Of a stretch of DNA of 27,316 nucleotides, positions 1,230-20,430 are shown piece by piece. Within the stretch, counting starts at the first letter, position 1, and the number at the start of each line of letters is the position of its first letter. The stretch comes from a virus (taxonomy: Duplodnaviria; Heunggongvirae; Uroviricota; Caudoviricetes): IMG/VR virus record IMGVR_UViG_2728369187_000003; one strand, given 5' to 3'. The position numbers and the translations under genes are program-made. Under the pieces are notes generated by a model, which saw nothing but the letters and a program-made list of their open reading frames with translations, was not told where the DNA came from and did not search any database.

Positions 1230-1287
1230 AGCTATATCTCATAACCGCCGCTAACTATATACGGTTAGCGGCAATTAGGGTTGAACA

Positions 1288-3729: not shown

Positions 3730-3822
3730 TATTGGTAAACCTCATCACAGATTTAAGGGTGAACAAATCTCTGCCATTGCTGACATATAAGAATGAAACT
3801 GGATATTTATTACGGTGCTGTT

Positions 3823-4014
3823 TTAAAATCCTGCCGGGATTTCGTTATTATCCTGGTGAATAACTTTATCGACCGGATAACAGTTGCCTGGAATTTTCTG
3901 TTCGGTTGCTGCTGCCATACATTCCTGCATTGTTCTGTGAACACTGACTGCAATATCAACTGGCTCTCCGGAAACAAGAAAAACCGTCAGAATAAGTGCA
4001 AATACTGGATTCAT
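3823..4014 (-). CDS. ydfD: YdfD-like small protein with N-terminal hydrophobic segment (63 aa)
   Basis: Internal Met of the 81-aa track ORF gives MNPVFALILTVFLVSGEPVDIAVSVHRTMQECMAAATEQKIPGNCYPVDKVIHQDNNEIPAGF; its ATG overlaps the dicB stop (ATGA), indicating translational coupling; matches my recollection of Qin YdfD. Confidence 0.6.
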   Translation of the reverse strand: MNPVFALILTVFLVSGEPVDIAVSVHRTMQECMAAATEQKIPGNCYPVDKVIHQDNNEIPAGF

Positions 4015-4199
4015 TGTGCACATCCTTTTGGCATCAGACGTAAACGGGCCAGCATTGAAACAATGCATACTTTATTTAATAACTCCCGTTCGTGTTTTCT
4101 TTTGTTAATGGCATCTTCAGTAAATACAGGATTACTGATAGTGACACCAATTTCAAAACAACCTTCAGACGTATTAACGTTTGGTAATAACNNNNNNNN
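4011..4199 (-). CDS. dicB: Cell division inhibitor DicB (5' end falls inside the N-run)
   Basis: Minus-strand translation of 4011-4191 reads (T)LLPNVNTSEGCFEIGVTISNPVFTEDAINKRKHERELLNKVCIVSMLARLRLMPKGCAQ*, matching E. coli DicB from memory; the first two to three codons lie in the N-run, so the start coordinate is inferred from the 62-aa length. Confidence 0.75.
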   Translation of the reverse strand, partial: XXXLLPNVNTSEGCFEIGVTISNPVFTEDAINKRKHERELLNKVCIVSMLARLRLMPKGCAQ

Positions 4200-4305
4200 N
4201 NNNNNNNNNNNNNNNNNNNNNNNNNNNNNNNNNNNNNNNNNNNNNNNNNNNNNNNNNNNNNNNNNNNNNNNNNNNNNNNNNNNNNNNNNNNNNNNNNNNN
4301 NNNNN
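4192..4305. other. Run of 114 N (assembly gap or masked sequence)
   Basis: Directly visible; covers the dicB start and the position where a dicF-like small RNA would be expected. Confidence 1.
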
Positions 4306-4585
4306 CCGGTGTCCTCAACGGTGAAGGAATAACCCCGCCATACTTACCGCCGCGCCATTTCGCGGAGTGCCACAACCGGAAGCGCACGGTCGACGATAAT
4401 TTAACGACAGGCTATCTATGAACCAGCTACCTCGCCGTGCGCTTTCGCGTTATGGTCTGACTTTTCAGGGAAATATCCTTTCAGTAAACTGTCAGTGCCG
4501 GATGCTCACCCGTGTCCGGCGCACGCACTCCACCTCACCCGTGGAGAACTCCTTAATTACCAACCTTAGCTTCGTTGGTTAGCTA

Positions 4586-4804
4586 TTAACGCGGGTATGT
4601 AATCATTCTGGCAATGCTTAATGCCGCTGCTTTTTCCAGCCTGGTGATATCCTGCTCCAGAGCGGACAGATTTTCAGCCTGCTTAGCCCTGGCTTCATTG
4701 GCCCATTTCAGATCCTGCGCTGCATTAATTTTCTGGCGCATCCACTCATAAAGTTCATCATCGGTATAGTCTGGCGCGATGATGACGGGTTCTCGTTTCT
4801 GCAT
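4586..4804 (-). CDS. ydfC: YdfC-like protein (72 aa)
   Basis: 72-aa ORF MQKREPVIIAPDYTDDELYEWMRQKINAAQ...; position between ydfB and dicB and length fit Qin ydfC as I recall it. Confidence 0.55.
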   Translation of the reverse strand: MQKREPVIIAPDYTDDELYEWMRQKINAAQDLKWANEARAKQAENLSALEQDITRLEKAAALSIARMITYPR

Positions 4805-4833
4805 ACTGATTCCTCGCGGTGCTGCTTCGCTTA

Positions 4834-4962
4834 TCAGCCGTTAGATTTTGCCGAGCTGGAAAGCGCCTGTTTAAACTCACTGAAGCTGAGAGCTTCTTCG
4901 CCTTCGGCAAGGCCTTCGAAGTATTCTTCGTAAGCCTTTTTCATGATTGTGTCGAAATCCAT
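4834..4962 (-). CDS. ydfB: YdfB-like small protein (42 aa), absent from the ORF track
   Basis: Minus-strand ORF MDFDTIMKKAYEEYFEGLAEGEEALSFSEFKQALSSSAKSNG*; ATG lies 1 nt after the ydfA stop; fits the ydfA-ydfB-ydfC order. Confidence 0.5.
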   Translation of the reverse strand: MDFDTIMKKAYEEYFEGLAEGEEALSFSEFKQALSSSAKSNG

Positions 4963-4963
4963 A

Positions 4964-5119
4964 TCACTCACCTGAGTTTCTTTCCAGCCAGCGACGGGCA
5001 CCATTTTCGGTTTTAAACGTTTTGCTTTTGGTATACGTCATCGCGGTGAATGTGCCGTCCTGGTTGGGAAACACGCCGTACACCAGAGATTCGTTGTTGC
5101 CAAGATCGATAGTATCCAT
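4964..5119 (-). CDS. ydfA: YdfA-like DUF1391-type small protein (51 aa)
   Basis: Internal Met of the 78-aa track ORF, preceded by GAGG 4 nt upstream, gives MDTIDLGNNESLVYGVFPNQDGTFTAMTYTKSKTFKTENGARRWLERNSGE; first gene after the PL-like promoter. Confidence 0.6.
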   Translation of the reverse strand: MDTIDLGNNESLVYGVFPNQDGTFTAMTYTKSKTFKTENGARRWLERNSGE

Positions 5120-5298
5120 GTTGACCTCATTTCCCCTTAACGCCGGGGTAGCGGAACAAAAACCTGCTGCATAGTTATTAAAGTTGAACCCTGCCGTCAT
5201 GTTCTTACGCCTCGGGCTGGCTACTTAACCCCTGACCACTGCCTGGTAACTCGAAGTATTGCCCTGCATTCTGTGGGGTGGGGTGAGGGAATGAATGA

Positions 5299-5347
5299 AG
5301 TTTAGAAAAATGAACTTTTCAGGTCAATGTTTTTTTATCAAAACATT
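5299..5347 (-). promoter_or_regulatory. PL-like leftward early promoter with overlapping palindromic operator
   Basis: On the minus strand TTGACC-N17-TAAACT; the palindrome AATGTTTT-N6-AAAACATT (plus 5326-5347) overlaps the -35 element; the same operator core recurs in the cI-cro intergenic region. Confidence 0.45.
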
Positions 5348-5411
5348 TTAAGCAGGCAGCTGTTAAGCCATCACCACGATGGCATACAGTTAATCAAATA
5401 GATGAGGTTGG

Positions 5412-6050
5412 TTAAATATCTTGTTGAATTTTAAAGCATACGCCCAATATGCAAGATAGATCATCCAGCATAATTGAAGGGTAGCGAGGATTCGTGGGGA
5501 CTAAAAGAATATCCGGCCCTTCTATCTCCAGTTTACGAATGACAGGTGTTGTGGTCCCTTTGGGTAAGGCAAGGACAATATTTCCTGGTTGTACGGTTCG
5601 ATCGGGATCAACAAAAACTGTTGAACCATTTGGGATGGAAACTCCCCCACCAGATGTTGACATACTGTCACTCTCTAGAACAACTGCAAAGGTATTGGCC
5701 GGGATTTCTCCGACAAGCTGCACACAAGAGGTTATTGAGGAATTTTTCATATAATCACTCCAGCTTGCTGCCTGCTGAAGTGATAGTAGCGGAACCGTTT
5801 TTATCGGCGGTAAAGATAGATCAAGCGAATCACCTGTATTTAACTCTCCTCCATTAAGAAGCCAATTTTCGTTTACTTTCAATATCTTTGCCAGTGAACT
5901 TATGTAACGCGAGGACGGCGCTCCTCCACCGTTCATCCATTGACTTACGGAGCCTTTTGATGCGCCAGTGGCATTGACAAGGTCTTTGCCTTTCAGGTTT
6001 AGCGCATGCATACGTTGGGTTATGCGTTCAGATATTGTTTGCTTGCTCAT
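5412..6050 (-). CDS. CI-like prophage repressor (N-terminal HTH, C-terminal S24 LexA-like autopeptidase)
   Basis: 212-aa ORF; N-terminal HTH region; C-terminal SDSM...IRKL...LVPTNPRYPSI parallels lambda CI GDSM...FKKL...LQPLNPQYPMI; no ribosome-binding site upstream of the ATG, which overlaps an operator (leaderless, PRM-like). Confidence 0.9.
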   Translation of the reverse strand: MSKQTISERITQRMHALNLKGKDLVNATGASKGSVSQWMNGGGAPSSRYISSLAKILKVNENWLLNGGELNTGDSLDLSLPPIKTVPLLSLQQAASWSDYMKNSSITSCVQLVGEIPANTFAVVLESDSMSTSGGGVSIPNGSTVFVDPDRTVQPGNIVLALPKGTTTPVIRKLEIEGPDILLVPTNPRYPSIMLDDLSCILGVCFKIQQDI

Positions 6051-6113
6051 GTTTTGATTTTAAAACACAGATGGTTTTGTTTCTTGACTTTCTTTGGTTT
6101 TGATTATTAAACT
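6049..6113. promoter_or_regulatory. OR-like operator cluster and PR-like rightward promoter
   Basis: ATGTTTT-N6-AAAACA palindrome at 6049-6067 overlapping the cI start; further GTTTT/AAAAC inverted motifs at 6062-6079 and 6097-6112; TTGACT (6084-6089)-N18-TAAACT (6108-6113) ahead of cro. Confidence 0.5.
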
Positions 6114-6141
6114 TTTGGCGTTCAGTTTTATGGAGCGACTT

Positions 6142-6372
6142 ATGAAAAAATCAGAAGTATTAGGCTATTTTGGCGGAGTTGTTAAAACAGCCGCAGCTCT
6201 AGGAACGTCAAAAACCACAGTCAGCATGTGGGGGGAAGAGGTTCCGTGGAAATGGGCGTTGCTAATTCAGGCAGTCACTGCCGGGGCGCTCAAATATGAG
6301 TTACACATACCGACGGTTGTCATTCCCGGTTCTGATCATAATCCGCCTTCTAACCAAGGGGGGGATTCATGA
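6142..6372 (+). CDS. Cro-like small HTH regulator
   Basis: 76 aa from the ATG at 6142, with GGAG 6 nt upstream; divergent from cI; helix-turn-helix-like segment VVKTAAALGTSKTTVSMW. Confidence 0.7.
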   Translation: MKKSEVLGYFGGVVKTAAALGTSKTTVSMWGEEVPWKWALLIQAVTAGALKYELHIPTVVIPGSDHNPPSNQGGDS

Positions 6373-6794
6373 AAATCAAGCATGAACACATCCGCATGGC
6401 GATGAATGCCTGGGCGCGTCCTGATGGCGAAAAAGTTCCAGCAGCTGGAATAACCCAGGCTTATTTTGAGTTGGGTATGACGTTTCCTGAACTGTATGAC
6501 GACAGCCATCCGGAAGCCCTGGCTCGCAATACCCAGAAAATTTTCCGCTGGGTAGAGAAAGACACCCCTGATGCAGTTGAAAAAATTCAGGCGTTGTTAC
6601 CAGCGATCGAAAAGGCAATGCCACCTTTGCTGGTGGCCAGAATGCGCAGCCACAGTTCAGCTTATTTTCGGGAGCTGGTGGAGACGCGGGAGCGATTGGT
6701 GAGAGACGCTGATGATTTTGTCGCAGTGGCAATCGCCGGTTTCAATCAGATGAACCGTGGTGGCCCGGCAGGAAATGCTGTGGCAGTACATTGA
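6369..6794 (+). CDS. YdaT-family-like protein in the cII position (function unknown)
   Basis: 141-aa ORF whose ATG overlaps the cro stop (ATGA); begins MKIKHEHI, which I recall for YdaT-like proteins that follow Cro-like YdaS; not verified. Confidence 0.45.
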   Translation: MKIKHEHIRMAMNAWARPDGEKVPAAGITQAYFELGMTFPELYDDSHPEALARNTQKIFRWVEKDTPDAVEKIQALLPAIEKAMPPLLVARMRSHSSAYFRELVETRERLVRDADDFVAVAIAGFNQMNRGGPAGNAVAVH

Positions 6795-6865
6795 CTGACA
6801 ATAGCCATATCGAATCGCTTCCGGCAACTCGTGAGTAAAAAGATTCGGTATCAGAAGAGGTGAGT

Positions 6866-7936
6866 ATGGCTAACGCTTGGCTCAGATTATGGCATGACAT
6901 GCCAAATGACCCTAAGTGGCGAACAATTGCCAGGGTGTCAGGGCAGCCAATTGCAACAGTGATGGCAGTGTATATCCACCTCCTGGTGAGCGCGTCACGA
7001 AATGTCACGCGAGGTCACATTGATGTCACGACAGAAGATTTGGCAAGTGCGCTCGACGTGACAGAAGAGGTAATTGATTCAATTTTGCAGACGATGCAGG
7101 GGCGGGTACTTGATGGTGATTTAATCACTGGATGGGAAAAACGCCAGGTTCTTAAAGAGGACAACGGCAATATTTCGCAAACCGCAAAATCTCCTGCAGA
7201 GCGCAAGAGGGCGCAGCGAGAGAGGGAAAGAAAGCGGGAACAAAATGGCGATTGTCACGGCGCGTCACGAAATGTCACGCACATGTCACGACGAGTCACG
7301 ACAGATAAAGATACAGATAAAGATACAGATCAAGAAGATCAAAACACTATGGTCCATGGCGTAAAAAACGCCACGAACCAGGCAGGGGATGTTCAGACCG
7401 TCAATCTTGGTCAGCCAGCAGGCACGACACCGGAAGCCGATTCAGCGTATGCGCTGAAAGCCGATTCGGGCGCTGTGCAGCAGGTGATGACCGCAAGGCC
7501 GGAGCAATCACACCAACTGCAGCAGCCTGAAGCCGATTCCGCCATTCAGCGGGAAGCCGATCGGGTAGTCCCGGAAAACACCGGGCAGCCTGTGGGACGA
7601 GTGGATTATCCGGATGTGTTCGAACAGGTCTGGCGGGAATACCCGTTGCGTGCTGGGGCAAACCCGAAGAAATCCGCTTTCAGTGCTTGGAAGGCCAGAT
7701 TACGCGAGGGGGTGTCACCAGAGGCCATGCTGGATGGCGTGAGGCGTTACGCAAGATACCTTGCGGCTACCGGGAAAACGGGAACGGAATTTGTTCAGCG
7801 AGCAACGACGTTTTTTGGACCGGACCGGAATTTTGAAAACCCCTGGCTGCTCCCGGTAAGCGGCACGAACAACCAGCGTTGTGTGAATCATATTTCTGAA
7901 CCGGATACCGAAATTCCACCGGGCTTCAGGGGGTAA
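6866..7936 (+). CDS. Replication initiator (O-like) with origin iterons inside the coding sequence
   Basis: 356 aa from the ATG at 6866 (GAGG 5 nt upstream); occupies the O position after cro and the cII-like gene; two internal GTCACG iteron arrays and an AT-rich tandem repeat lie inside it. Confidence 0.65.
   Translation: MANAWLRLWHDMPNDPKWRTIARVSGQPIATVMAVYIHLLVSASRNVTRGHIDVTTEDLASALDVTEEVIDSILQTMQGRVLDGDLITGWEKRQVLKEDNGNISQTAKSPAERKRAQRERERKREQNGDCHGASRNVTHMSRRVTTDKDTDKDTDQEDQNTMVHGVKNATNQAGDVQTVNLGQPAGTTPEADSAYALKADSGAVQQVMTARPEQSHQLQQPEADSAIQREADRVVPENTGQPVGRVDYPDVFEQVWREYPLRAGANPKKSAFSAWKARLREGVSPEAMLDGVRRYARYLAATGKTGTEFVQRATTFFGPDRNFENPWLLPVSGTNNQRCVNHISEPDTEIPPGFRG
6991..7030. repeat. 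Iteron array 1: four GTCAC(G/A) repeats at roughly 10-bp spacing
   Basis: GTCACG at 6994, 7004 and 7025, GTCACA at 7014; the first 21 nt are identical to the start of array 2. Confidence 0.7.
7251..7330. repeat. Iteron array 2 (five GTCACG repeats) followed by an AT-rich tandem repeat; candidate origin of replication
   Basis: GTCACG at 7254, 7264, 7274, 7285 and 7295, then gataaagataca repeated about 2.5 times at 7302-7330; the architecture parallels ori-lambda inside gene O. Confidence 0.65.
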
Positions 7937-7976
7937 GTGTTGATTTCTGGTCATGAGGTAATTTTCAGGAGGACTT

Positions 7977-8399
7977 GTGGCAAAAGTTTTTACACAAGAA
8001 GAGCGAGAAAAAATTAAAGGGCAGGTTGTTGAACTCGTACGCCAGAGTGGGCGTGAGACGTTACGGCAACTGGAAGTCAAAACAGGTGCGACAAGATATC
8101 TGATGAGCGTTCTCGCAAGAGAGCTGGTTGCCAGCGGCGATGTATACAACTCTGGTTACGGGTTATTCCCGTCTGAACAGGCGCGTAAGGACTGGCAAAA
8201 TGCCCGTAAAAAGCTCTCAAGGGCAAAGCTGAAGAAACCATCTGCGGTTGATCCGGACCTTATCTGGTCATTACCTGACGGAGAAATACGTCGCTACGAC
8301 AGGCGTCAGAACATAATCTGTCGCGAGTGCCGGAAGAGTGAAGTTATGCAGCGCATATTGTCGTTTTATCAGGGGGATGTTCGGTATTTATTGAAGTGA
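7977..8399 (+). CDS. Hypothetical protein (140 aa) downstream of the replication initiator
   Basis: GTG start with AGGAGG 4 nt upstream; no recognisable helicase-loader features; last gene before the AT-rich island. Confidence 0.4.
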   Translation: MAKVFTQEEREKIKGQVVELVRQSGRETLRQLEVKTGATRYLMSVLARELVASGDVYNSGYGLFPSEQARKDWQNARKKLSRAKLKKPSAVDPDLIWSLPDGEIRRYDRRQNIICRECRKSEVMQRILSFYQGDVRYLLK

Positions 8400-8684
8400 C
8401 GAGATTAAAGTGCATTAGTTCAGATGCAAATTGACATTTTGTGGCACAGGGTAGAGCTAGCGTGGTTGTCCGCTTTGTGTCAAGAGAGGACGTTCATCCA
8501 TAACTAATTGCTGATCAATACTCAGCAGCATTATGCCCATGTCGCTTTTATTTCACTTTCACTAATGATTGATTTTGGTTCTAGTAGAAGACATAATATT
8601 AGAATATGTATTTGCGTAAGAAATAATTAGTTTCCAATGCATTGGTTTAGTAGAGTGTTTAATAACATCAAGAGGTAGTTTTGG

Positions 8685-9218
8685 ATGACAACCTGGGTGG
8701 AAGTTGTTGATACGGCTGTGAAGATTGGATTTGGTGGTATAATAACGCTGACAGGTACATTTATTATTTCAAAAATGAATCACAAACATGAATTTGATAA
8801 AGATAAAAGTCGTCGCTATTATGATTCATTAGAATCTGTAAGCACTCAAATTGAGGATATGACACATATATCCTTACGCTATTGGGCTTTGATAATTGAA
8901 TGGGTTAGAAATAAGGAACAAAAGGGATTGGATCTTACCAGAGAAAGGCAAGAGGAGTTAAATAAAACAAAATTAGATTTATTTGACAATTTTAAAAGCT
9001 TGACAGTTGCAGAGTCGAAGCTTTTGCTTTTAGGTTTAACTGACACATCAGTTGCTTTAAGAGACTACGGTGATTATTTAAAAGCAATGCGGAGAAATTA
9101 TTATGATGGCAAACCTGATATTAAGGAGTCAGATCTTGAAAATGTAAGGGTTACGTTACTTTACAAACGTAAAGTCCTGTTTGATTTTTTGTCTAGGGAT
9201 TATAAAAAAGGAATATAG
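8685..9218 (+). CDS. Hypothetical membrane-anchored protein (177 aa), island gene A
   Basis: AT-rich codon usage; one N-terminal hydrophobic segment (VKIGFGGIITLTGTFIISKM) followed by a charged, probably helical region; AGAGG upstream. Confidence 0.55.
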   Translation: MTTWVEVVDTAVKIGFGGIITLTGTFIISKMNHKHEFDKDKSRRYYDSLESVSTQIEDMTHISLRYWALIIEWVRNKEQKGLDLTRERQEELNKTKLDLFDNFKSLTVAESKLLLLGLTDTSVALRDYGDYLKAMRRNYYDGKPDIKESDLENVRVTLLYKRKVLFDFLSRDYKKGI

Positions 9219-9595
9219 AATCATAGGTTTTAAGTTAAGGGATGCTATTGACTTCCTTTTCAGCAACCTAGCTTCTAGTTATGATGATAATTATAAATCT
9301 GAAGCTTAGTTCATCATAGTCATATTGGATTAGTAATGATATTTACTCGATGCTTCTAAGTTGTAATGAAAATGCTTACTATACGCTCATTGAAAACCTC
9401 ATGCCTCTCCCTTGATCGCTTGTGGCTGGAACGGACAAAACCACATTTTATATTCATTTTTGCTAGTGGTTTAATATAGCACTATATGCTTTTTATTTTG
9501 CTATGATTGATGTCTTAAGAATTCTATGAACATCTAAAATAGGTGATTAACATAACATCGTTGTTTTATAACAAGTAGAATAAGGAGTCAGTTTT

Positions 9596-10519
9596 ATGCC
9601 ATCACTAGATACTATAGTTTTAAACCTCCTAAGAGGGGCTGTTCCTGAGAATGCTGATGAACTTTGTCAGACCTGGAAGAGCTATAAACACACGGTCGAA
9701 CTTGCAGAGGATGCCCTAGGATCAACAATGAATGCAACTAGTAGGCGCATCGAGTTTGACTCTAAAACTATCGATTTCTTTTGGTTATTTGGGTTTAGTA
9801 CATGGTTTACGATTGAGACATATGCTCCAGCCCTAGTAAAAGCATGCTTACTAGGTGTGACGTTAGAGTCGGCTTTAGAATCTGATGAAGAACGTGGCCA
9901 ATTTGAACTAAATTATAAACAGCATTTGTATATTTCAAAGTCTTTGCTAAGCGTTGCGAATACGGCTGATATTACATGGCCTCAAGATATTCCTTTTCCA
10001 ACAGATGCGCGAGATAGTTTGAATAATATTCAAGAACAGGCTGTTTTTGATCTAGTAGCATTAGCATTGTCTTTTTCTATACTTCATGAGTATAAACATG
10101 TTCAAGCACGAGCCGAAGAAAAAAAACATGAAAATCCCCAAGAGAAGGATGAAGAAGAGTTAGCCTGTGACTCTTGGGCTCGTGAATATATAACTAAGGG
10201 CGTCGGAGTCTATGCTAAAAAAGCTGGGCATACCTATGAAGAGGTCATGCAAAAACGAGCAATGGGGATAACACTTGCCGCCTTTACTATACACGCTTTA
10301 ACATCAGATATCGATAAATGGGGTGGTGAAGAGTATCCATCTATAGCAGTAAGGATTCAAACAATGATAGGGGGGTACAACCTTTCAGATTCATCGCCCT
10401 TCTGGTGTTTTACAGCTTGTCTTCTCATCGCGGTGATGAGACAGGAAAACCGTAAGCTTGATTATAAAGCTACAACATATAAAGAGTTTGTTACTAGGCT
10501 CCTTTCGGAATTACACTAA
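9596..10519 (+). CDS. HExxH zinc-metallopeptidase-like protein (307 aa), island gene B
   Basis: TAAGGAG ribosome-binding site 8 nt upstream; HEYKH motif at residues 164-168 within FSILHEYKHVQ; a hairpin terminator follows. Confidence 0.6.
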   Translation: MPSLDTIVLNLLRGAVPENADELCQTWKSYKHTVELAEDALGSTMNATSRRIEFDSKTIDFFWLFGFSTWFTIETYAPALVKACLLGVTLESALESDEERGQFELNYKQHLYISKSLLSVANTADITWPQDIPFPTDARDSLNNIQEQAVFDLVALALSFSILHEYKHVQARAEEKKHENPQEKDEEELACDSWAREYITKGVGVYAKKAGHTYEEVMQKRAMGITLAAFTIHALTSDIDKWGGEEYPSIAVRIQTMIGGYNLSDSSPFWCFTACLLIAVMRQENRKLDYKATTYKEFVTRLLSELH

Positions 10520-10535
10520 ATAATTTTGACATAAT

Positions 10536-10572
10536 AATAGACAGATTAGAATGATATCTGTCTATTATTTGC
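10536..10572 (+). terminator. Hairpin terminator after island gene B
   Basis: Perfect 11-bp inverted repeat AATAGACAGAT / ATCTGTCTATT with a 9-nt loop, followed by a T-rich tail (ATTATTT). Confidence 0.5.
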
Positions 10573-10980
10573 ATTAGTCGTGACTTGATCTGACACATGG
10601 CTTTGAAAGATTAAGAGTTACTGGTATTGATATGGGGCCGAAGTGTTATACAATACAAGAGGTAATTCTCATATTCCATACTAACAATCCTATCATCAAA
10701 CACAACGCCGGTTACTTAAGGTGGCTGAGGAACTCAGCAACGTATCCGAAGCCAGCAAAGCCATGGTCCTTTCGCAGTAAGTTGCGTAAATAAGGTGTTT
10801 TTATCCCTTGAAGCATTCTACAAAGCCAGCTCCTCGCTCAAACAGACGTGCCTGTTCACCAATCTGCCCGCTTGGTATCAAGGGACGCCAGTAACGCGAT
10901 ACAGGCGATACAGGGTGAATTCCTTCCTTAACTGCCCTCACATCATCTTTAATAATAGTTTACCCTGATATAACGGATGA

Positions 10981-12360
10981 TCAGAAGTCCATCAGGTCAT
11001 CGAATTTCTGAGGTGGCTCTTGTTTTCGAACACTATCTCCCTGATGAATCTCCGTCTCACTTGTTTGGTATTTTACACCAGTAATTTTATGATAAGTCAT
11101 ACTGTTGGTTTTCAACAGTAGTGCATCATTTTTGTCATGCGAGGATGAAAATGAACCCATATGTCTCGGTTTTATTTGTTCCTCAACTATTAACTGAATT
11201 TCCGGAACAAAAGCATACTGGTCATCTTCGATGTGTTCATACATCTCAACATTATATCGGCGAGATTTATCTGCGGCATGCCTGACGCCGGAAGACTTAT
11301 TAAACAGAACGACATTATATCCTATCTCAGCATCCTCACCGTTGGCATCTACCTGGGTAGATTTAAAGCTGACACCATCAAGCTTAAATTTATTTCGGTC
11401 ACCTAGGTAATCGGCAACCACTTGGGTGATGAGGTAATCACTGTCCTGCCTTTTTCCAAAAGTAGGAAGCGTCAACTTACGGGAAAGCGTACTGAAAAAA
11501 ATCGCGCGCTCACTGGTTTTGCGAGTCTGAGGATCAAATTTACTACCTGAGCCGAAACTAATCGAGTCAAGGGCAGAAATGTCCAGCACTTTTAGCTCGC
11601 GTAACGGTACAAAACAGGCCGTTACTACAATACTGCCGACGGGCGGCCTTACTTCAGCAATTGCCAAATTCACTGAGGTTGCACCGTAAAATACTGAAAT
11701 CCCCTGTGCGTTCATACGGCCCGACCGAGCCAAAGTTGATGGGGGAGGTCCAAAATTTTTCTCGGGCTGCTCCAAGGCTTGCTTTACTTCCTCTTGGTCC
11801 TCAAAGACCCTTGCACGAAAAAGATGAACCTCATCAGTCAGAGTTTTTATCGGTGAATTACTGTCTCTGTTTTTTAGTTTATCGATATCACTGAAAAGTG
11901 AATCCAGGAAATCATTAACTTCACGGTTAAAATATCGTGTTTCTTTCATAAGGGAGTCAGTGGCTTTACTCCAGGTATGCGCAAGCTCTCCGCTATAGTG
12001 ATTTATGTGCCGATAAACAAACCCATCATTATACCGGATGTAGTCATAATCGTTATGCGGATTATATTCATCACAAAGAAATTCATAAATATCTTCAGCT
12101 ACGTCCCATTCGACGCCCAGTTCTCCGCAGATGACATCCTGCGCGCTATCACCGCGCCCGGAATCATAGATATCCTCATACATATCATAGTAGTACTCAA
12201 AAACCTCATTCATCATCTTGAGAATATATTTGAGGTGGATGTTTTTACGCTTCCTTTTGCAGTAAGAGCAAATCCGAACATTATTTCCGGTTTTTATTAT
12301 ATGCTGCATGACATATTTATCGTTCACGCATTTATGACAAATATACTTATCTTTCCACAT
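10981..12360 (-). CDS. Zinc-ribbon plus RES-like domain protein (459 aa), island gene C
   Basis: N-terminal CHKC...CSYC zinc-ribbon-like motif; central SGRMNAQGISVFYGATSVNLAIAEV fits the R-x9-Y-x10-E spacing I recall for RES-domain NAD-targeting toxins; convergent with gene B. Confidence 0.55.
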   Translation of the reverse strand: MWKDKYICHKCVNDKYVMQHIIKTGNNVRICSYCKRKRKNIHLKYILKMMNEVFEYYYDMYEDIYDSGRGDSAQDVICGELGVEWDVAEDIYEFLCDEYNPHNDYDYIRYNDGFVYRHINHYSGELAHTWSKATDSLMKETRYFNREVNDFLDSLFSDIDKLKNRDSNSPIKTLTDEVHLFRARVFEDQEEVKQALEQPEKNFGPPPSTLARSGRMNAQGISVFYGATSVNLAIAEVRPPVGSIVVTACFVPLRELKVLDISALDSISFGSGSKFDPQTRKTSERAIFFSTLSRKLTLPTFGKRQDSDYLITQVVADYLGDRNKFKLDGVSFKSTQVDANGEDAEIGYNVVLFNKSSGVRHAADKSRRYNVEMYEHIEDDQYAFVPEIQLIVEEQIKPRHMGSFSSSHDKNDALLLKTNSMTYHKITGVKYQTSETEIHQGDSVRKQEPPQKFDDLMDF

Positions 12361-12427
12361 TTTTTACCCACTCATCATCAGCTGATACAAGGTCACTTTC
12401 CTGCAATTTTATAATTAAATCAAGCAT
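12347..12427 (-). CDS. Candidate 26-aa upstream ORF overlapping the start of island gene C
   Basis: GGAGGGGG ribosome-binding site 8 nt upstream of the ATG; MLDLIIKLQESDLVSADDEWVKNVER*; its stop overlaps the gene C ATG. Confidence 0.3.
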   Translation of the reverse strand: MLDLIIKLQESDLVSADDEWVKNVER

Positions 12428-12706
12428 AAAAACCCCCTCCTCACCTCAATGCTTTCAGTGTAAAAATAATTAGTAATACGCTGTACTGGTAATAATTATG
12501 AACTTCCTCTTCTCGCTCAAAGCGGACTAGAAAGTTAGCTTGCGTCGGACTTGGCGTATTTAAAGAAGTGCTGGTGGTGACTGGTTGTTGTGTTCCATTT
12601 CTACAGAACAAAATCACAGAAACTATACCCAATAGTTGTATTGAATCACTGACGAGACAGCCTCATATTTATCAGGACTGGTGTACGTCCAATACAGGAG
12701 GTTGTG

Positions 12707-12796
12707 GTGCTGGTTCTCAAATGTGCGCTGGCTATTGCTGCTGTAATGGCAATTTATTGCCTTGCTGTTGTTCTTATGGATCGCCTTTCTGATTGA
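12707..12796 (+). CDS. Candidate 29-aa hydrophobic peptide
   Basis: AGGAGG 5 nt upstream of a GTG start; MLVLKCALAIAAVMAIYCLAVVLMDRLSD*; a single predicted transmembrane helix with charged ends. Confidence 0.35.
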   Translation: MLVLKCALAIAAVMAIYCLAVVLMDRLSD

Positions 12797-12897
12797 TTTT
12801 ATATTGGCGAGGTGACGTGAGTTAAGTAGAATTGCTGCGGGTGCTTGAGGCTATCTGCCTCAGGCATGAACACCAAAGGCAGATAGAGAAAAGCCCC

Positions 12898-14773
12898 AGT
12901 TAACATTACGCGTCCTGCAAGACGCTTAACATTAATCTGAGGCCAATTTCATGCTAGACACATGTAGGTTAGCCTCTTACGTGCCGAAAGGCAAGGAGAA
13001 GCAGGCTAGTGTTAACACCAAGCTGTAATGTCCCCTTTGAACCATTCTAAAATGTCCCCAGACAATTCTCTGGGGGATTTTTCATGATCAAAGAGACTGT
13101 TACGATGAGTCATAAGGAACTCCACCGACTTCAGATTATTCAGGAGTCAATTAATCGACATATTACTCAGGAACAAGCTGCGGCACGCATTGGCATTTCT
13201 ATTCGGCAGGTTAAACGTCTGGTGCAACGGTATAGAAATGAAGGGCCTTCTGGTCTGGTTTCCCACCGACGTGGAAAGCGTCCTAATAATTCCTTTTCTA
13301 CTGAATTCAGAGCAACAGTAATTTCACTCCTCAAAGGCCGTTACGCTGATTTTGGACCTACGTTTGCGTGCGAAAAATTGCGCGAGATACACGGTTTATC
13401 TTTATCCGTTGAAACTCTCAGAAAGTGGATGATAGAAGAGGGGTTATGGCGTGAACGCCGTCGTAAAATTGCCCGTATATATCAACGCCGCATGCGACGA
13501 CCATCTTACGGTGAACTGATCCAGATTGATGGCTCACCTCATGACTGGTTTGAAAATCGAGGCCCCAGATGTACACTGATCGTTTTCATTGATGATGCCA
13601 CCAGTGCGTTGATGGCGTTGCGTTTTGTGCCTGCTGAAACAACCCGGGCTTACATGGAAACCCTCCGGGGTTACCTTAATGATCATGGCGTACCGCTCGC
13701 TCTCTACTCTGATAGACACAGTATATTCAGGGTAAATAACCCAGAGCGGGAAGGTGAGCTGACCCAGTTCACTCGTGCGATAAAGACACTGGGCATCGAG
13801 CCAATCCATGCCAACAGCCCGCAGGCAAAAGGGCGGGTAGAGCGCGCCAATCAGACACTACAGGACAGGCTGGTCAAAGAAATGCGGCTTCAGAATATCA
13901 GTGATATTGAAACAGCAAATGCATGGTTGCCGACCTTTATTGAAGCCTATAACAACCGGTTCGCTACGTCGCCTCGTACTACTGATAATGCTCATCTTGA
14001 TGAGCACCATTCTGAAGAGGAACTGGGTTATATCTTCAGCCTACAGGCGAAGCGCGTTCTGTCTAAAAATCTCACTTTCCAGTACAAAAGCAGTGCGTTT
14101 CAGGTACGCAGTGAGGGCCGGGGATATCGACTTAGGCATTCGGTTGTTACTGTATGCGAGAACTTTGACGGTGAAATTAACGTTCTGTATGACGGGAAAG
14201 CGCTGGGCTGGGAAAAGTATGTTGATGGCCCGGAGCCTATACCACTGGATGATGAAAAGAGTGTCCATGAACGAGTGGATAATGCCCGTATTGATTTACG
14301 CTCAAAATACTATGTTAAACCTAAAGCTGACCATCCCTGGCTTACGCGCCGAACGCAAAGTCATCAGCAAGTTAAGCCCCCGAAGTTACCTAAAAAGAAG
14401 CCTGATCCCGATAAAAAAGATTGAAACCAAGATCGATTCGGTTGAGTGCATATCCATTCATAGGGTAGATTCTTAAGTCGCGTTTCTGGTGTTCATTTTC
14501 GGGTGGTTTGTTACTTGTTTTACCGGGGATATGCCAGAAACGCGCTGAGTCAGTCTGGGCGGTGCGCGTAATGAGGCGTTATGGTAAATAGCCTATGCTA
14601 ATGTCCGCTAAGAGCAAGAAGCGGAAGTTGGCAGTTTTGTGGACTGTCCCCACAAAAGTGACTACAGAAATAGTTGCAATTCATAATTGATCATGGGTTG
14701 TCAGTTAAACTCGTGGCGATTTAAATAGACTAATTGGGAGTGCGTCCATTACTTATATCTTGTAATGTTAACT
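12898..14773 (+). mobile_element. Insertion sequence carrying a DDE transposase (ends uncertain)
   Basis: The transposase gene is flanked by a 12-bp inverted match, AGTTAACATTAC at 12898-12909 and its reverse complement at 14762-14773; hairpin-forming inverted repeats sit inside both arms; no direct repeats found. Confidence 0.4.
13084..14424 (+). CDS. DDE transposase with N-terminal HTH (IS481/ISNCY-like, family not resolved)
   Basis: 446-aa ORF; N-terminal HTH-like region (ITQEQAAARIGISIRQVKRLV), central integrase-core-like region (IQIDGSPHDW...LIVFIDDATS...) and a basic C-terminal tail. Confidence 0.75.
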   Translation: MIKETVTMSHKELHRLQIIQESINRHITQEQAAARIGISIRQVKRLVQRYRNEGPSGLVSHRRGKRPNNSFSTEFRATVISLLKGRYADFGPTFACEKLREIHGLSLSVETLRKWMIEEGLWRERRRKIARIYQRRMRRPSYGELIQIDGSPHDWFENRGPRCTLIVFIDDATSALMALRFVPAETTRAYMETLRGYLNDHGVPLALYSDRHSIFRVNNPEREGELTQFTRAIKTLGIEPIHANSPQAKGRVERANQTLQDRLVKEMRLQNISDIETANAWLPTFIEAYNNRFATSPRTTDNAHLDEHHSEEELGYIFSLQAKRVLSKNLTFQYKSSAFQVRSEGRGYRLRHSVVTVCENFDGEINVLYDGKALGWEKYVDGPEPIPLDDEKSVHERVDNARIDLRSKYYVKPKADHPWLTRRTQSHQQVKPPKLPKKKPDPDKKD

Positions 14774-14820
14774 ATCAGAAATGATACAAAGATAATATGT
14801 CTTTAAAGAAAAGGCTGATG

Positions 14821-14846
14821 GCGAAAAGTGGCCCGATGAGGGCCAC
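14821..14846 (-). terminator. Rho-independent terminator downstream of flxA
   Basis: GTGGCCC-GATGA-GGGCCAC hairpin followed on the minus strand by TTTTCGCC. Confidence 0.55.
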
Positions 14847-14860
14847 AATACGGCTGTCAC

Positions 14861-15193
14861 TTAGACGTAAATATCAATGGTGCCAGCGGTATTTGTATCG
14901 TCTTTTTTCTCTTCTTTTTTATCAGGCTGAACTGTCGCGTCTTCATTCTTTTTCTCTGCCTGCTGCCTTAACAACTGCTCCAGTTGAGCCCAGAGGCTTT
15001 CAATTTGCTTCTGTACCAATGCAGCCATTTCTTTTTTCTGCTGTGTCGTCATCCCCTCTTCCGATGAGATTTTCACAAGCTTTTCAGTCAGCACCTGAAT
15101 TTGTCTTGTGATTTTGGCTATTTCTGATGTTCCTTCCGGGGCGGAGTTGTTTGAAATAACGGTTGAGGTATTTCCCTGAATTGTGACAGACAT
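14861..15193 (-). CDS. flxA: FlxA-like protein (110 aa)
   Basis: 110-aa ORF; AAGGAG ribosome-binding site; preceded by a near-consensus sigma-28 promoter; matches the Qin flxA position and length from memory. Confidence 0.7.
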   Translation of the reverse strand: MSVTIQGNTSTVISNNSAPEGTSEIAKITRQIQVLTEKLVKISSEEGMTTQQKKEMAALVQKQIESLWAQLEQLLRQQAEKKNEDATVQPDKKEEKKDDTNTAGTIDIYV

Positions 15194-15216
15194 AGATTTC
15201 TCCTTTTAAAAAAGCA

Positions 15217-15243
15217 CTATCGGCATGCACAAAAAAATCTTTA
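15217..15243 (-). promoter_or_regulatory. Sigma-28 (FliA) type promoter for flxA
   Basis: Minus strand reads TAAAGATT-N-GCCGATAG with a 15-nt spacer between TAAA and GCCGATA, against the consensus TAAA-N15-GCCGATAA. Confidence 0.6.
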
Positions 15244-15395
15244 ATCGTATTTCTTGTGTCATTAATTGTTTGATGTTCAGATTGTTTTCCTCGCGGGCTG
15301 GCGCGCCTCAGAAAGTAAAGCTTGTTGACAGGGGTAAACGTTCGGCAATAATTTTCTGCCGCATGCGGGTGTTGCATAAAACGTGTTACGTTCCT

Positions 15396-15701
15396 TTATC
15401 GACAGGTCAGGTCACCGCTCACCCGCCGACGAGAAAGCAACACTGACATGCTAAAGCAAAAAATAGATGAATAAGTTGAGTTGTGCATATGTAGCCTGAC
15501 CGTCACAAAGTATATGGTGTCTGTACCAGTAAGATGATGGCCGGACTCTTTAAAAACGAGCTGACCTGCACAATACAGGATGGACTTAGCAATGGCTGCT
15601 CCTGGCAGAAAGCGGACAGTGATCACCGTTCTTACGACTACTTTCTGACTTCCTTCGTGACTTGCCCTAAGCATGTTGTAGTGCGATACTTGTAATGACA
15701 T
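15396..15701 (-). CDS. YdfV-like hypothetical ORF (101 aa)
   Basis: Length and position between relB and flxA match the K-12 ydfV annotation as I recall it; no other support. Confidence 0.3.
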   Translation of the reverse strand: MSLQVSHYNMLRASHEGSQKVVVRTVITVRFLPGAAIAKSILYCAGQLVFKESGHHLTGTDTIYFVTVRLHMHNSTYSSIFCFSMSVLLSRRRVSGDLTCR

Positions 15702-15714
15702 TTGTAATTACAAG
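15662..15714 (+). promoter_or_regulatory. relBE promoter and operator
   Basis: TTGCCC-N17-GATACT followed by the palindromic CTTGTAATGACATTTGTAATTACAAG, overlapping the -10 element and just upstream of the relB ribosome-binding site. Confidence 0.6.
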
Positions 15715-15725
15715 AGGTGTAAGAC

Positions 15726-15965
15726 ATGGGTAGCATTAACCTGCGTATTGACGATGAACTTAAAGCGCGTTCTTACGCCGCGCTTGAAAAAATGGGTGTA
15801 ACTCCTTCTGAAGCGCTTCGTCTCATGCTCGAGTATATCGCTGACAATGAACGCTTGCCGTTCAAACAGACACTCCTGAGTGATGAAGATGCTGAACTTG
15901 TGGAGATAGTGAAAGAACGGCTTCGTAATCCTAAGCCAGTACGTGTGACGCTGGATGAACTCTGA
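15726..15965 (+). CDS. relB: RelB antitoxin
   Basis: 79 aa MGSINLRIDDELKARSYAALEKMGVTPSEALRLMLEYIADNERLPFKQ..., near-identical to E. coli RelB from memory; stop overlaps the relE start. Confidence 0.95.
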   Translation: MGSINLRIDDELKARSYAALEKMGVTPSEALRLMLEYIADNERLPFKQTLLSDEDAELVEIVKERLRNPKPVRVTLDEL

Positions 15966-16252
15966 TGGCGTATTTTCTGGATTTTGACGAGCGGGCACTA
16001 AAGGAATGGCGAAAGCTGGGCTCGACGGTACGTGAACAGTTGAAAAAGAAGCTGGTTGAAGTACTTGAGTCACCCCGGATTGAAGCAAACAAGCTCCGTG
16101 GTATGCCTGATTGTTACAAGATTAAGCTCCGGTCTTCAGGCTATCGCCTTGTATACCAGGTTATAGACGAGAAAGTTGTCGTTTTCGTGATTTCTGTTGG
16201 GAAAAGAGAACGCTCGGAAGTATATAGCGAGGCGGTCAAACGCATTCTCTGA
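15965..16252 (+). CDS. relE: RelE mRNA interferase toxin
   Basis: 95 aa MAYFLDFDERALKEWRKLGSTVREQLKKKLVEVLESPRIEANKLRGMPDCYKIKLRSSGYRLVYQVIDEKVVVFVISVGKRE..., matching RelE from memory. Confidence 0.95.
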   Translation: MAYFLDFDERALKEWRKLGSTVREQLKKKLVEVLESPRIEANKLRGMPDCYKIKLRSSGYRLVYQVIDEKVVVFVISVGKRERSEVYSEAVKRIL

Positions 16253-16323
16253 ACCAAAGCATGACATCTCTGTTTCGCACCGAAGGTGACACTTCTGCTT
16301 TGCGTTGACAGGAGAAGCAGGCT

Positions 16324-16473
16324 ATGAAGCAGCAAAAGGCGATGTTAATCGCCCTGATCGTCATCTGTTNNNNNNNNNNNNNNNNNNNNNNNNNNNNNNN
16401 NNNNNNNNNNNNNNNNNNNNNNNNNNNNNNNNNNNNNNNNNNNNNNNNNNNNNNNNNNNNNNNNNNNNNNNNN
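16324..16473 (+). CDS. hokD: Hok-family toxin (hokD/relF-like), interrupted by an N-run
   Basis: Begins MKQQKAMLIALIVIC, the Hok N-terminus, then runs into the N-run; the true 3' end is not visible and the 66-aa track ORF is an artifact of the gap. Confidence 0.7.
16370..16473. other. Run of 104 N (assembly gap or masked sequence)
   Basis: Directly visible; lies inside the hok-like gene. Confidence 1.
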
Positions 16474-19633: not shown

Positions 19634-19933
19634 AAAAATTCCTTAATACTGATAACTTGGCGCACTATACACACGTTCCTGAAGAAAGCTATAGTTTTTT
19701 GATGGGGTTGAAGATGGCTGGATGTCTAAAATAAACATTGCTTCATATGTTCAACTATGCGTTAATGATTGCGTCGGTTTGAAGAACAGACGATATACGA
19801 AGTAGTTTACTAAAGCAGTTCTCATTTCAGGTGTTATTCACTTATTCCTTCTTTGAGTCTCTCCAATTAAGTACGAAGTCGTTTCTGTTATGCAAACCAT
19901 TTATGCCGAAAGGCTCAAGTTAAGGAATGTAGA

Positions 19934-20149
19934 ATGTCAAATAAAATGACTGGTTTAGTAAAATGGTTTAACGCTGATAAAGGTTTCGGCTTTATTTCTC
20001 CTGTTGATGGTAGTAAAGATGTGTTTGTGCATTTTTCTGCGATTCAGAATGATAATTATCGAACCTTATTTGAAGGTCAAAAGGTTACCTTCTCTATAGA
20101 GAGTGGTGCTAAAGGTCCTGCAGCAGCAAATGTCATCATTACTGATTAA
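19934..20149 (+). CDS. cspB: Cold-shock protein, CspB-like
   Basis: 71 aa [67 protein letters not shown]... Confidence 0.85.
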
Positions 20150-20430
20150 AATTCATCGCTCGTCTGTATACGATAACGAAGAAGGCTGATGCCTGAGTAG
20201 AGATACGGACAGAGTAGTGAATATTGGATCTCTTTAATAAAAAGTAAGGAGGTCCAATACATGAAACAATGGCCAGCATATTTGGCAAAATCTTAATCAG
20301 GAAAAGTATGCTAACCATTGTGGTGAAGTGCAGGTTTGCTGCATGAATAGTTTCACAGCAGAAGCTAACTGCTGGCATCGCAAAACAAAGTGCGTAAGTG
20401 GATGACTCCCACAAAAAGCACCACAATCTC

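What the first reader, a model, noticed from the sequence alone, without database searches (positions are those of the whole stretch)
8400..12830. AT-rich cargo island inside the prophage: candidate undescribed defence or abortive-infection locus
Between the replication module and the IS element the sequence becomes visibly AT-rich compared with the flanking prophage. It carries genes with no counterpart in the lambdoid core that I recognise: a membrane-anchored 177-aa protein, a 307-aa protein with a HExxH metallopeptidase motif, and a convergent 459-aa protein with a zinc ribbon and a RES-like R/Y/E core, plus two small ORFs with strong ribosome-binding sites. Prophage early regions are known hotspots for defence cargo, and both a protease and a NAD-targeting domain are typical abortive-infection effectors. 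The gene combination is an inference from motifs only.
Basis: partly seen in the sequence, partly recalled or inferred. Interest (0 to 1): 0.85.

Follow-up and report, generated by a model that had tools for sequence, protein, structure and literature searches.

The report
Prophage defence island: aRES, Lit, unknown gene
The AT-rich stretch is a real anti-phage cargo island in a variable slot of an E. coli lambdoid prophage, but it is two separately mobile cassettes, and its main gene is identical to the already published NAD+-depleting defence protein aRES.

Summary
Window 8492-12504 is the lowest-GC 4-kb stretch of the window (GC 0.384, against 0.49 and 0.465 in the flanks).

- **The 459-aa RES protein (10981-12360, minus strand)** is residue-for-residue the E. 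coli UC5 aRES protein. Osterman et al. (bioRxiv, January 2026) showed that aRES is a standalone anti-phage NAD+ phosphorylase. It makes ADPR-1''-phosphate and nicotinamide and causes growth arrest.
- **The 307-aa HExxH protein** belongs to the Lit / peptidase U49 family. It is about 20% identical to e14 Lit and is already named as Lit family by NCBI's PGAP annotation pipeline and detected by PADLOC.
- **The 177-aa protein** belongs to an uncharacterised single-domain family with no Pfam model. It has an N-terminal hydrophobic helix followed by a four-helix bundle.

The island is not one system. It is two cassettes: 177-aa gene plus Lit (8485-10643) and aRES (10746-12528). Each occurs without the other in other mobile elements. 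They sit in a slot between the DUF977 gene and hok/sok, and the flanks of that slot match in 2281 of 5426 complete E. coli genomes, where examples carry other cargo.

What remains new is small: the untested Lit subfamily and the 177-aa gene that travels with it in enterobacteria.

The parts
8492..12504 (.). Island proper: DNA specific to this variant of the prophage slot between the DUF977 gene and the sok/hokD locus.
   Evidence: Flanks shared with prophages that carry other cargo end at 8491-8494 and resume at 12501-12509. GC is 0.384, the lowest 4-kb stretch of the window.
8485..10643 (+). Cassette A: the 177-aa gene, a 377-bp spacer and the Lit-family gene, mobile as one unit among enterobacterial elements.
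   Evidence: It is 83.7% nucleotide-identical over 2.19 kb to a Klebsiella AlpA/DUF927 island, spacer included. The same gene pair is in an Enterobacter P2-like prophage and a Citrobacter lambdoid prophage.
8685..9218 (+). 177-aa protein of an uncharacterised family: an N-terminal hydrophobic helix (residues about 10-28, a possible membrane anchor) followed by a four-helix bundle.
   Evidence: - No Pfam, NCBIfam or PHROG match.
- AlphaFold2 model with mean pLDDT 90, all helical.
- No significant match to solved structures.
- 1068 clusters of relatives, almost all 170-195 aa, with no domain fusions.
9219..9595 (+). Non-coding spacer between the 177-aa gene and the Lit gene, with a promoter-like site at 9552-9581.
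   Evidence: A promoter-like site is found by the scan. There is no Rfam family. Folding is no better than shuffled sequence, z = -0.42. The spacer is conserved with indels in Klebsiella.
9596..10519 (+). Lit-family (peptidase U49) zinc metalloprotease, from a divergent 307-aa subfamily.
   Evidence: - PF10463: 30.5 bits against a cut-off of 23.9.
- PADLOC Lit model: E = 1.3e-18 over the full length.
- NCBIfam PRK09672: 184.7 bits, below the equivalog cut-off of 274.
- hhalign against K-12 Lit: probability 96.3%.
10085..10099 (+). HEYKH, the HExxH zinc-binding catalytic motif (H164, E165, H168).
   Evidence: The motif is invariant across the subfamily and aligns with the HEISH motif of K-12 Lit.
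10746..12528 (-). Cassette B: the aRES gene with about 165 bp upstream and 235 bp downstream, mobile as one unit.
   Evidence: It is 97% nucleotide-identical to a cassette between the tail-fibre-assembly and tail-sheath genes of P2-like prophages, and to one at the end of an e14-like element.
10981..12360 (-). aRES: a standalone antiphage RES-domain NAD+ phosphorylase, identical to the validated E. coli UC5 protein.
   Evidence: Residues 1-399 are identical to the sequence in Table S4 of Osterman et al. The first 399 nt of their genome-integration insert equal window 10981-11379 exactly, so the whole protein is covered.
12259..12339 (-). N-terminal zinc ribbon of aRES (C8, C11, C31, C34).
   Evidence: All four cysteines are invariant in 25 aRES homologues.
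11920..12276 (-). HEPN/RES N-terminal domain 1 of aRES (residues 29-147), the presumed sensor or regulatory domain.
   Evidence: PF18870 matches at E = 4.3e-4 and 21.1 bits, below the gathering score of 27.4. Many homologues carry PF18870 in the precomputed annotation.
11278..11742 (-). RES catalytic domain of aRES (residues 207-361).
   Evidence: PF08808 matches at E = 5.2e-14 and 53 bits. Family-invariant residues in or near this domain include R182, R184, Y225, E236 and S262.
12347..12427 (-). Candidate 26-codon upstream ORF (MLDLIIKLQESDLVSADDEWVKNVER) with a GAGGAGG Shine-Dalgarno sequence. It overlaps the aRES start codon. Its status is uncertain.
   Evidence: Found. In relatives at 93-98% identity the ATG is kept, but the stop moves (19 or 21 codons) and the Shine-Dalgarno sequence weakens. 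It is not annotated in RefSeq.

Best explanation
The island is a mosaic of independently mobile anti-phage genes. They sit in a variable cargo slot of a Rac/Qin-type lambdoid prophage, between the DUF977 replication-region gene and the sok/hokD locus.

**Cassette B: aRES.** This is a single 459-aa protein made of a zinc ribbon, a HEPN/RES-NTD1 domain and a RES domain. Experiments on the identical protein, published by others, show that on phage infection it phosphorolyses NAD+ to nicotinamide and ADPR-1''-phosphate. This depletes NAD+ and arrests growth (abortive infection). The product cannot be recycled by the phage NARP1 pathway. How it senses infection is not known; a sensing role for the N-terminal domains is inferred.

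**Cassette A: a Lit-family protease and a 177-aa protein.**
- By homology to e14 Lit, the Lit-family zinc metalloprotease most likely stays latent until a late phage protein appears, then cleaves a translation factor and shuts down protein synthesis. In e14 Lit the target is EF-Tu, cut between Gly59 and Ile60 once the T4 capsid Gol peptide has bound it. For this subfamily both the target and the trigger are inferred, not shown.
- The 177-aa helical protein has no known function. It is most likely a separate accessory or exclusion gene that is linked to Lit only in a recent enterobacterial cassette.

The three genes probably act in parallel as layered abortive-infection defences that benefit the prophage and its host.
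For: **aRES**
- The window protein is identical to the validated protein: 399 aa by protein sequence and 399 nt of the 3' end by DNA.
- The family definition (RES plus PF18870, 300-600 aa, standalone) is.
- The Pfam domains are present.

**The cassettes move independently**
- aRES occurs alone at 97% nucleotide identity in P2-like and e14-like prophages.
- The 177-aa + Lit pair occurs without aRES in three other genera and element types.
- The full island is in 4 of 5426 genomes, while the flanks match in 2281.
- The same slot holds NUDIX + HAD genes, or a 269-aa hypothetical protein, in other strains.

**Lit family**
- Sequence models, the profile comparison with K-12 Lit and the conserved catalytic motif all agree.
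- The predicted structure best matches zinc metalloproteases.
- The mechanism of e14 Lit is taken from PMC3014915.

**The 177-aa gene is not an obligate Lit partner**
- None of 79 species-level loci that encode a homologue has a Lit gene within 8 kb.
- Their neighbouring genes are heterogeneous.
- Lit homologues at 67% and 53% identity have no 177-aa gene next to them.
- The Salmonella 177-aa gene (82% identical) is followed by an unrelated 181-aa gene.
Against: - No experiment exists for this Lit subfamily. It is only about 20% identical to e14 Lit and scores below NCBI's equivalog cut-off, so EF-Tu as the target and a capsid peptide as the trigger are extrapolations.
- The 177-aa + Lit pair keeps its order and a spacing of about 380-405 bp in four different mobile elements. 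That fits a functional pair as well as it fits simple linkage.
- The defence role of the 177-aa gene rests on context alone. In Psychrobacter it sits in a conserved chromosomal neighbourhood, which is not typical of defence cargo.
- aRES was tested from inducible constructs, not from this prophage context. Its expression and role in the lysogen are not shown.
Confidence: 0.78

Rival explanations
1. The 177-aa protein and the Lit-family protease form a two-gene system in enterobacteria. For example, a membrane-anchored helical sensor or inhibitor could hold the protease latent or recruit it.
For: - The pair recurs with the same order, orientation and spacing of about 380-405 bp in four kinds of element: an E. 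coli lambdoid prophage, a Klebsiella AlpA/DUF927 island, an Enterobacter P2-like prophage and a Citrobacter lambdoid prophage. Lit identity across these is 79-100%.
- The spacer between the two genes is also conserved at the nucleotide level.
Against: - The two genes are 377 bp apart, and a promoter-like site lies in front of Lit, so they do not look like a tight operon.
- Lit homologues at 67% identity (P2-like prophage) and 53% identity (P. aeruginosa conjugative element) lack the 177-aa gene.
- None of 79 species-level loci with a 177-aa homologue carries Lit within 8 kb.
- The Salmonella homologue is followed by an unrelated gene.
- e14 Lit is known to act alone.
Confidence: 0.17
2. All three genes form one integrated defence system, with the protease and the NADase acting in one pathway.
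For: The genes are physically adjacent in an island with clear boundaries. The same arrangement is found in four E. coli genomes and one viral contig.
Against: - Each cassette occurs without the other in many other contexts.
- The Lit and aRES genes are convergent, with a junction of about 100 bp of unrelated DNA between the cassettes.
- aRES alone is sufficient for defence.
Confidence: 0.03
3. The genes are not defence genes here. The RES protein would be an addiction toxin that stabilises the prophage, and the other two would be inert passengers.
For: RES domains are classically toxins of RES-Xre toxin-antitoxin pairs. A hok/sok addiction module lies next door at 12839-13005.
Against: - No Xre/DUF2384 antitoxin gene is adjacent.
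- The identical protein is tolerated in uninfected cells and protects against several phages.
- All family-invariant residues of Lit and of the 177-aa protein are intact.
Confidence: 0.02

Closest known systems
aRES (antiphage RES-domain protein), Osterman et al., bioRxiv 10.64898/2026.01.28.702374
   Same: The window ORF 10981-12360 is the same protein as the E. coli UC5 aRES that was tested experimentally. It has the same domain set (RES plus HEPN/RES-NTD1, with an N-terminal zinc ribbon), it is standalone, and it sits among other defence genes.
   Different: The protein does not differ at all. Only the native context is added here: a lambdoid prophage cargo slot, and a mobile 1.8-kb cassette that is also found in P2-like and e14-like prophages.
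Lit, the cell-death peptidase of cryptic prophage e14 (peptidase family U49)
   Same: Full-length homology, a conserved HExxH motif plus downstream acidic residues, similar length (307 against 297 aa), a prophage location, and single-gene architecture in more distant relatives.
   Different: It is only about 20% identical and scores below the NCBIfam equivalog cut-off (184.7 against 274 bits). It belongs to a distinct 307-aa subfamily that is widespread in alpha- and gammaproteobacteria. Its trigger and substrate are untested. In enterobacteria it travels with a 177-aa gene that e14 lacks; YmfE, next to e14 lit, is unrelated.
RES-Xre (MbcT/MbcA, NatT/NatR) type II toxin-antitoxin systems
   Same: The same catalytic domain and the same chemistry, NAD+ phosphorolysis.
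   Different: There is no adjacent Xre/DUF2384 antitoxin. The protein is much longer, with a zinc ribbon and the NTD1 domain. It is activated by phage infection rather than by loss of an antitoxin.
Defence hotspots of temperate phages and satellites (P2 and P4 hotspots, Rousset et al. 2022, PMC9122126; NAR 2026, PMC13586616)
   Same: Conserved flanks with interchangeable cargo. The same aRES cassette occupies the slot between the tail-fibre-assembly and tail-sheath genes in P2-like prophages.
   Different: The slot here is in a Rac/Qin-type lambdoid prophage, between the DUF977 gene and hokD. It was not one of the hotspots treated in those papers, as far as the text searches show.

Membership tests
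aRES | RES catalytic domain (Pfam PF08808) | tested here: met
   E = 5.2e-14, 53 bits against a cut-off of 23.2, residues 207-361.
aRES | HEPN/RES N-terminal domain 1 (PF18870) | tested here: inconclusive
   The single-sequence hmmscan gives E = 4.3e-4 and 21.1 bits, below the gathering score of 27.4. Homologues at 40-70% identity carry PF18870 in the precomputed annotation. The authors used profile-profile HHsearch, which was not reproduced here.
aRES | Length of 300-600 aa and standalone, with no operonic partner or antitoxin | tested here: met
   The protein is 459 aa. Its only neighbours are the convergent Lit gene and the conserved flank. The mobile cassette 10746-12528 holds no other annotated gene. 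Caveat: a possible 19-26-codon upstream ORF.
aRES | Sequence identity to an experimentally validated member | tested here: met
   Identical to E. coli UC5 aRES over residues 1-399 by protein sequence and over the last 133 codons by DNA.
aRES | Phage-triggered conversion of NAD+ to ADPR-1''-phosphate plus nicotinamide, with growth arrest | not testable with these tools
   Reported for the identical protein and in the paper's abstract. Not measured here.
RES-Xre toxin-antitoxin | An adjacent, co-oriented Xre/DUF2384 antitoxin gene | tested here: not met
   There is no such ORF next to 10981-12360 in the window or in the RefSeq annotation of four genomes.
Lit / peptidase U49 | Match to the family model above the curated threshold | tested here: met
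   PF10463 scores 30.5 bits against a cut-off of 23.9. The PADLOC Lit model matches at E = 1.3e-18 over residues 15-306.
Lit / peptidase U49 | Equivalence to e14 Lit (NCBIfam equivalog PRK09672) | tested here: not met
   184.7 bits against a cut-off of 274. Pairwise identity to K-12 Lit is about 20%, E = 4e-7. hhalign probability is 96.3%. It is a homologue, not an equivalog.
Lit / peptidase U49 | HExxH zinc site conserved and aligned with that of e14 Lit | tested here: met
   H164, E165 and H168, together with E187, E188 and D192, are invariant in the alignment that includes K-12 Lit.
Lit / peptidase U49 | Zinc-metalloprotease fold | tested here: inconclusive
Lit / peptidase U49 | Cleavage of EF-Tu at Gly59-Ile60, activated by a phage capsid (Gol) peptide | not testable with these tools
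   Known for e14 Lit only (PMC3014915).
Prophage cargo or defence hotspot | Conserved flanks with interchangeable cargo across related prophages | tested here: met
   The flanks match in 2281 of 5426 E. coli genomes, and this cargo is in 4. Alternative cargo is shown. The junctions were mapped.
Known defence families, for the 177-aa protein | Significant match to any PADLOC, Pfam, NCBIfam or PHROG model | tested here: not met
   The only hit is a weak one to the PADLOC '2TM effector' model (E = 0.0043, 14.6 bits). There is nothing in Pfam, NCBIfam or PHROGs.

The most novel reading that the evidence does not exclude
The 177-aa helical protein could be a new component of phage exclusion. Its family is uniform in size, has no Pfam model and comprises about 1000 sequence clusters. 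It could be a standalone membrane-associated exclusion or abortive-infection gene, or it could be a regulator or sensor that partners with the Lit-family protease in the enterobacterial cassette. A partnership would make this a two-component variant of the classical single-gene Lit system.
Probability: 0.22. Interest if true: 0.5.

Novelty: already known. Interest (0 to 1): 0.3.

Why it matters
The headline claim, an undescribed defence locus, does not stand. The NAD-targeting gene is the published aRES protein, and the protease is an annotated Lit-family member.

The analysis still adds useful context.
- It shows the native setting of the founding aRES gene: a 1.8-kb cassette that moves between lambdoid, P2-like and e14-like prophages.
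- It identifies a variable cargo slot between the DUF977 gene and hokD whose flanks match in about 40% of complete E. coli genomes. That slot could be mined for further cargo.
- It flags a Lit subfamily, widespread in proteobacteria and never tested, whose trigger and substrate may differ from those of e14 Lit.
- It flags an uncharacterised 177-aa gene that travels with this Lit subfamily in enterobacteria.

Tried and rejected
- **Lit as an obligate partner of the 177-aa protein.** I scanned one genome per species for homologues of the 177-aa protein (79 loci) and searched 8 kb on each side with Lit, RES and 177-aa profiles. No locus had Lit or RES nearby.
- **A conserved neighbour of the 177-aa gene.** Clustering the neighbouring ORFs gave only genus-level synteny in Psychrobacter. 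Pfam and PADLOC scans of 124 immediate neighbours gave a heterogeneous mix and no recurrent partner.
- **YmfE.** This is the gene next to lit in e14. It is unrelated to the 177-aa protein.
- **The Salmonella 181-aa gene.** It lies downstream of the Salmonella 177-aa homologue and is not a truncated Lit.
- **Fold of the 177-aa protein.** A structure search against solved structures gave only generic four-helix bundles, with no match at E <= 0.001. The AlphaFold database library was unavailable.
- **Domain fusions of the 177-aa family.** A profile search of 1.84 billion proteins found none that would hint at function.
- **A solved Lit structure.** None exists in the Protein Data Bank.
- **RNA elements in the island.** There was only a sub-threshold chance hit, psRNA2 at 24.8 bits against a gathering score of 65. 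The 377-bp spacer folds no better than shuffled sequence.
- **Viral contig scans.** All three proteins returned few loci, mostly near-identical, so they could not test conservation of the ORF upstream of aRES at depth.
- **Literature.** The P2/P4 hotspot papers and the DefensePredictor paper do not mention RES systems in their main text.

Full report

Yes.
- GC drops from about 0.50-0.56 in the replication region (7000-8250) to 0.32-0.42 across 8500-11250, and again to 0.36-0.39 at 12000-12750.
- The island as mapped by comparative genomics (8492-12504) has GC 0.384, against 0.489 to the left and 0.465 to the right. It is the lowest-GC 4-kb stretch in the window.
- Third-position GC of the three genes is 0.28-0.41, against 0.47-0.53 in the neighbouring prophage genes.
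- The HExxH motif (residues 164-168 of the 307-aa protein) and the four zinc-ribbon cysteines of the 459-aa protein are present.
- The membrane anchor of the 177-aa protein is plausible but marginal on hydropathy alone (1.56 over 19 residues).

**2. Where the window comes from**

It is an E. coli Rac/Qin-type lambdoid prophage integrated beside tRNA-Ser and mtfA. Its annotated genes include an exonuclease, dicB, ydfABC, a repressor/Cro pair, YdaT, DUF977, hokD, DUF968, rusA and Q.
- The whole island is present in only 4 of 5426 complete E. coli genomes, at 99.8-100% identity.
- 2281 genomes match the query, and in the examples listed or examined the match is to the flanks only.
- In other strains the same slot holds NUDIX plus HAD hydrolase genes, or a 269-aa hypothetical gene on the opposite strand.
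- Flank homology ends at 8491-8494 and resumes at 12501-12509.

This is therefore a variable cargo slot between the DUF977 gene and the sok/hokD locus. The sok RNA lies at 12839-13005.

**3. The 459-aa RES protein is aRES**

Pfam finds a RES domain (E = 5e-14) and a weak HEPN/RES-NTD1 match. RefSeq calls the protein 'RES family NAD+ phosphorylase'. The zinc ribbon + NTD1 + RES architecture was described computationally by Anantharaman et al. in 2013.

A literature search then found Osterman et al. (bioRxiv, January 2026). They define aRES as standalone 300-600-aa proteins with both the RES and PF18870 domains.
- Three members, including one from E. coli UC5, protect E. coli against diverse phages, with growth arrest and NAD+ depletion.
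- The products are nicotinamide and ADPR-1''-phosphate, which the phage NARP1 recycling pathway cannot use.
- Phages counter aRES with a Macro-domain phosphatase or with aRad1 inhibitor proteins.

Their Table S4 gives the UC5 sequence. Its 399 listed residues are identical to the window protein. The first 399 nt of their genome-integration insert match window 10981-11379 exactly, so the whole 459-aa protein is covered. This component is therefore already known and experimentally validated.

**4. aRES is a separate mobile cassette**

Window 10746-12528 occurs at 97% nucleotide identity in other E. coli genomes.
- In P2-like prophages it sits between the tail-fibre-assembly and tail-sheath genes.
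- It also sits at the end of an e14-like element.
- In both cases the rest of the island is absent.

The conserved unit starts about 165 bp upstream of the gene.

**5. The 307-aa protein is a divergent Lit-family protease**
- It passes the Pfam peptidase U49 threshold.
- It matches the PADLOC Lit model over its full length.
- It matches NCBIfam PRK09672 at 184.7 bits, below the equivalog cut-off of 274.
- It is about 20% identical to e14 Lit, with HExxH and downstream acidic residues aligned. The profile comparison gives 96.3% probability.
- No Lit structure has been solved.
- The 307-aa subfamily is widespread in alpha- and gammaproteobacteria.

The known mechanism of e14 Lit is cleavage of EF-Tu at Gly59-Ile60, activated by the T4 capsid Gol peptide. 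It is the best model for this protein, but it is an inference here.

**6. The 177-aa protein is uncharacterised**
- No library matches it.
- The AlphaFold2 model (pLDDT 90) is one long N-terminal helix followed by a four-helix bundle.
- The search of solved structures gives only generic helical bundles.
- The family has about 1068 clusters at 50% identity. Nearly all members are 170-195 aa, and none carries an extra domain.

**7. Is the 177-aa protein a Lit partner?**

Evidence for a partnership:
- The pair recurs with the same order and a spacing of about 380-405 bp in a Klebsiella AlpA/DUF927 island, an Enterobacter P2-like prophage and a Citrobacter lambdoid prophage.
- The E. coli and Klebsiella cassettes are 83.7% identical over 2.19 kb, spacer included.

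Evidence against:
- Lit homologues at 67% identity (P2-like prophage, next to an Mrr nuclease gene) and at 53% identity (P. aeruginosa conjugative element, next to Gabija-like genes) have no 177-aa gene.
- None of 79 species-level loci with a 177-aa homologue has Lit within 8 kb. Their neighbours are heterogeneous.
- The Salmonella homologue (82% identical) is followed by an unrelated gene.

I conclude that the pair is a recent enterobacterial cassette of two separable genes. A clade-specific functional link is not excluded (about 0.17).

**8. Overall reading**

The island is cassette A (8485-10643) plus cassette B (10746-12528), joined tail to tail in a variable cargo slot. It combines two abortive-infection effectors of known families with one unknown gene. 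No Rfam family or unusual RNA structure is present in the island.

**9. Verdict**

The claims that the locus is undescribed and that it is one locus are not supported. What remains new is limited to the untested Lit subfamily and the 177-aa gene.

Noticed in passing
window 13009-16309: A 3.3-kb insertion carries an IS1202-like ISEsa1 (ISNCY-family) transposase gene (13084-14424). It sits exactly at the hokD start codon and has a 15-nt duplication (12994-13008 = 16310-16324). The same sok/IS junction is present in 688 complete E. coli genomes, so the arrangement is old and widespread.
   Followed up: partly
window 12707-12796 (+): A 29-codon hydrophobic ORF (VLVLKCALAIAAVMAIYCLAVVLMDRLSD) lies behind an AGGAGG Shine-Dalgarno sequence, in the conserved flank just upstream of sok. 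Its composition resembles a type I toxin. It overlaps a Cys-rich 74-aa ORF (12568-12792). Neither ORF is annotated in RefSeq.
   Followed up: no
window 12347-12427 (-): A 26-codon upstream ORF with a strong Shine-Dalgarno sequence overlaps the aRES start codon. In relatives at 93-98% identity the ATG is kept, but the stop position changes (19 or 21 codons) and the Shine-Dalgarno sequence weakens. It may be a leader peptide or may be nothing.
   Followed up: partly
window 12509-12528: About 20 nt (CTTCTCGCTCAAAGCGGACT) are shared by two things: the end of the aRES cassette in P2-like prophages, and lambdoid flanks that lack the cassette. This could be a short recombination anchor or a chance extension of the alignment.
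   Followed up: no
window 19773-20165 and 22673-23058 (+): Two full-length matches to the cspA thermoregulator 5'UTR (158.8 and 112.8 bits). They indicate two prophage-borne cold-shock-protein genes downstream of the island.
   Followed up: no
L014-L017 (Salmonella), 6001-7476: The Salmonella 177-aa homologue (82% identical) lies in an integrase-bearing island. In L014 and L015 that island is next to mtfA. The gene is followed, at the same spacing of about 400 bp, by an unrelated 181-aa gene with no Pfam match, as if the downstream position were exchangeable.
   Followed up: partly
L107-L110 (P. aeruginosa), 1-6968: A Lit homologue at 53% identity sits in a conjugative element directly after a Gabija-like gene pair (OLD-type ATPase/TOPRIM plus UvrD helicase) and before a T5orf172 gene. 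This looks like a defence cluster within a type IV secretion element.
   Followed up: no
L098 2668-3974 and L099 2647-3456: Other strains carry different cargo in the same slot between the DUF977 gene and hokD: a NUDIX hydrolase plus HAD hydrolase pair, and a 269-aa hypothetical protein on the opposite strand.
   Followed up: no
window 10795-10968: A patch that looks more GC-rich than its surroundings lies downstream of the aRES stop, inside cassette B. It has overlapping ORFs of 46 and 57 aa on opposite strands and may be a gene remnant.
   Followed up: no
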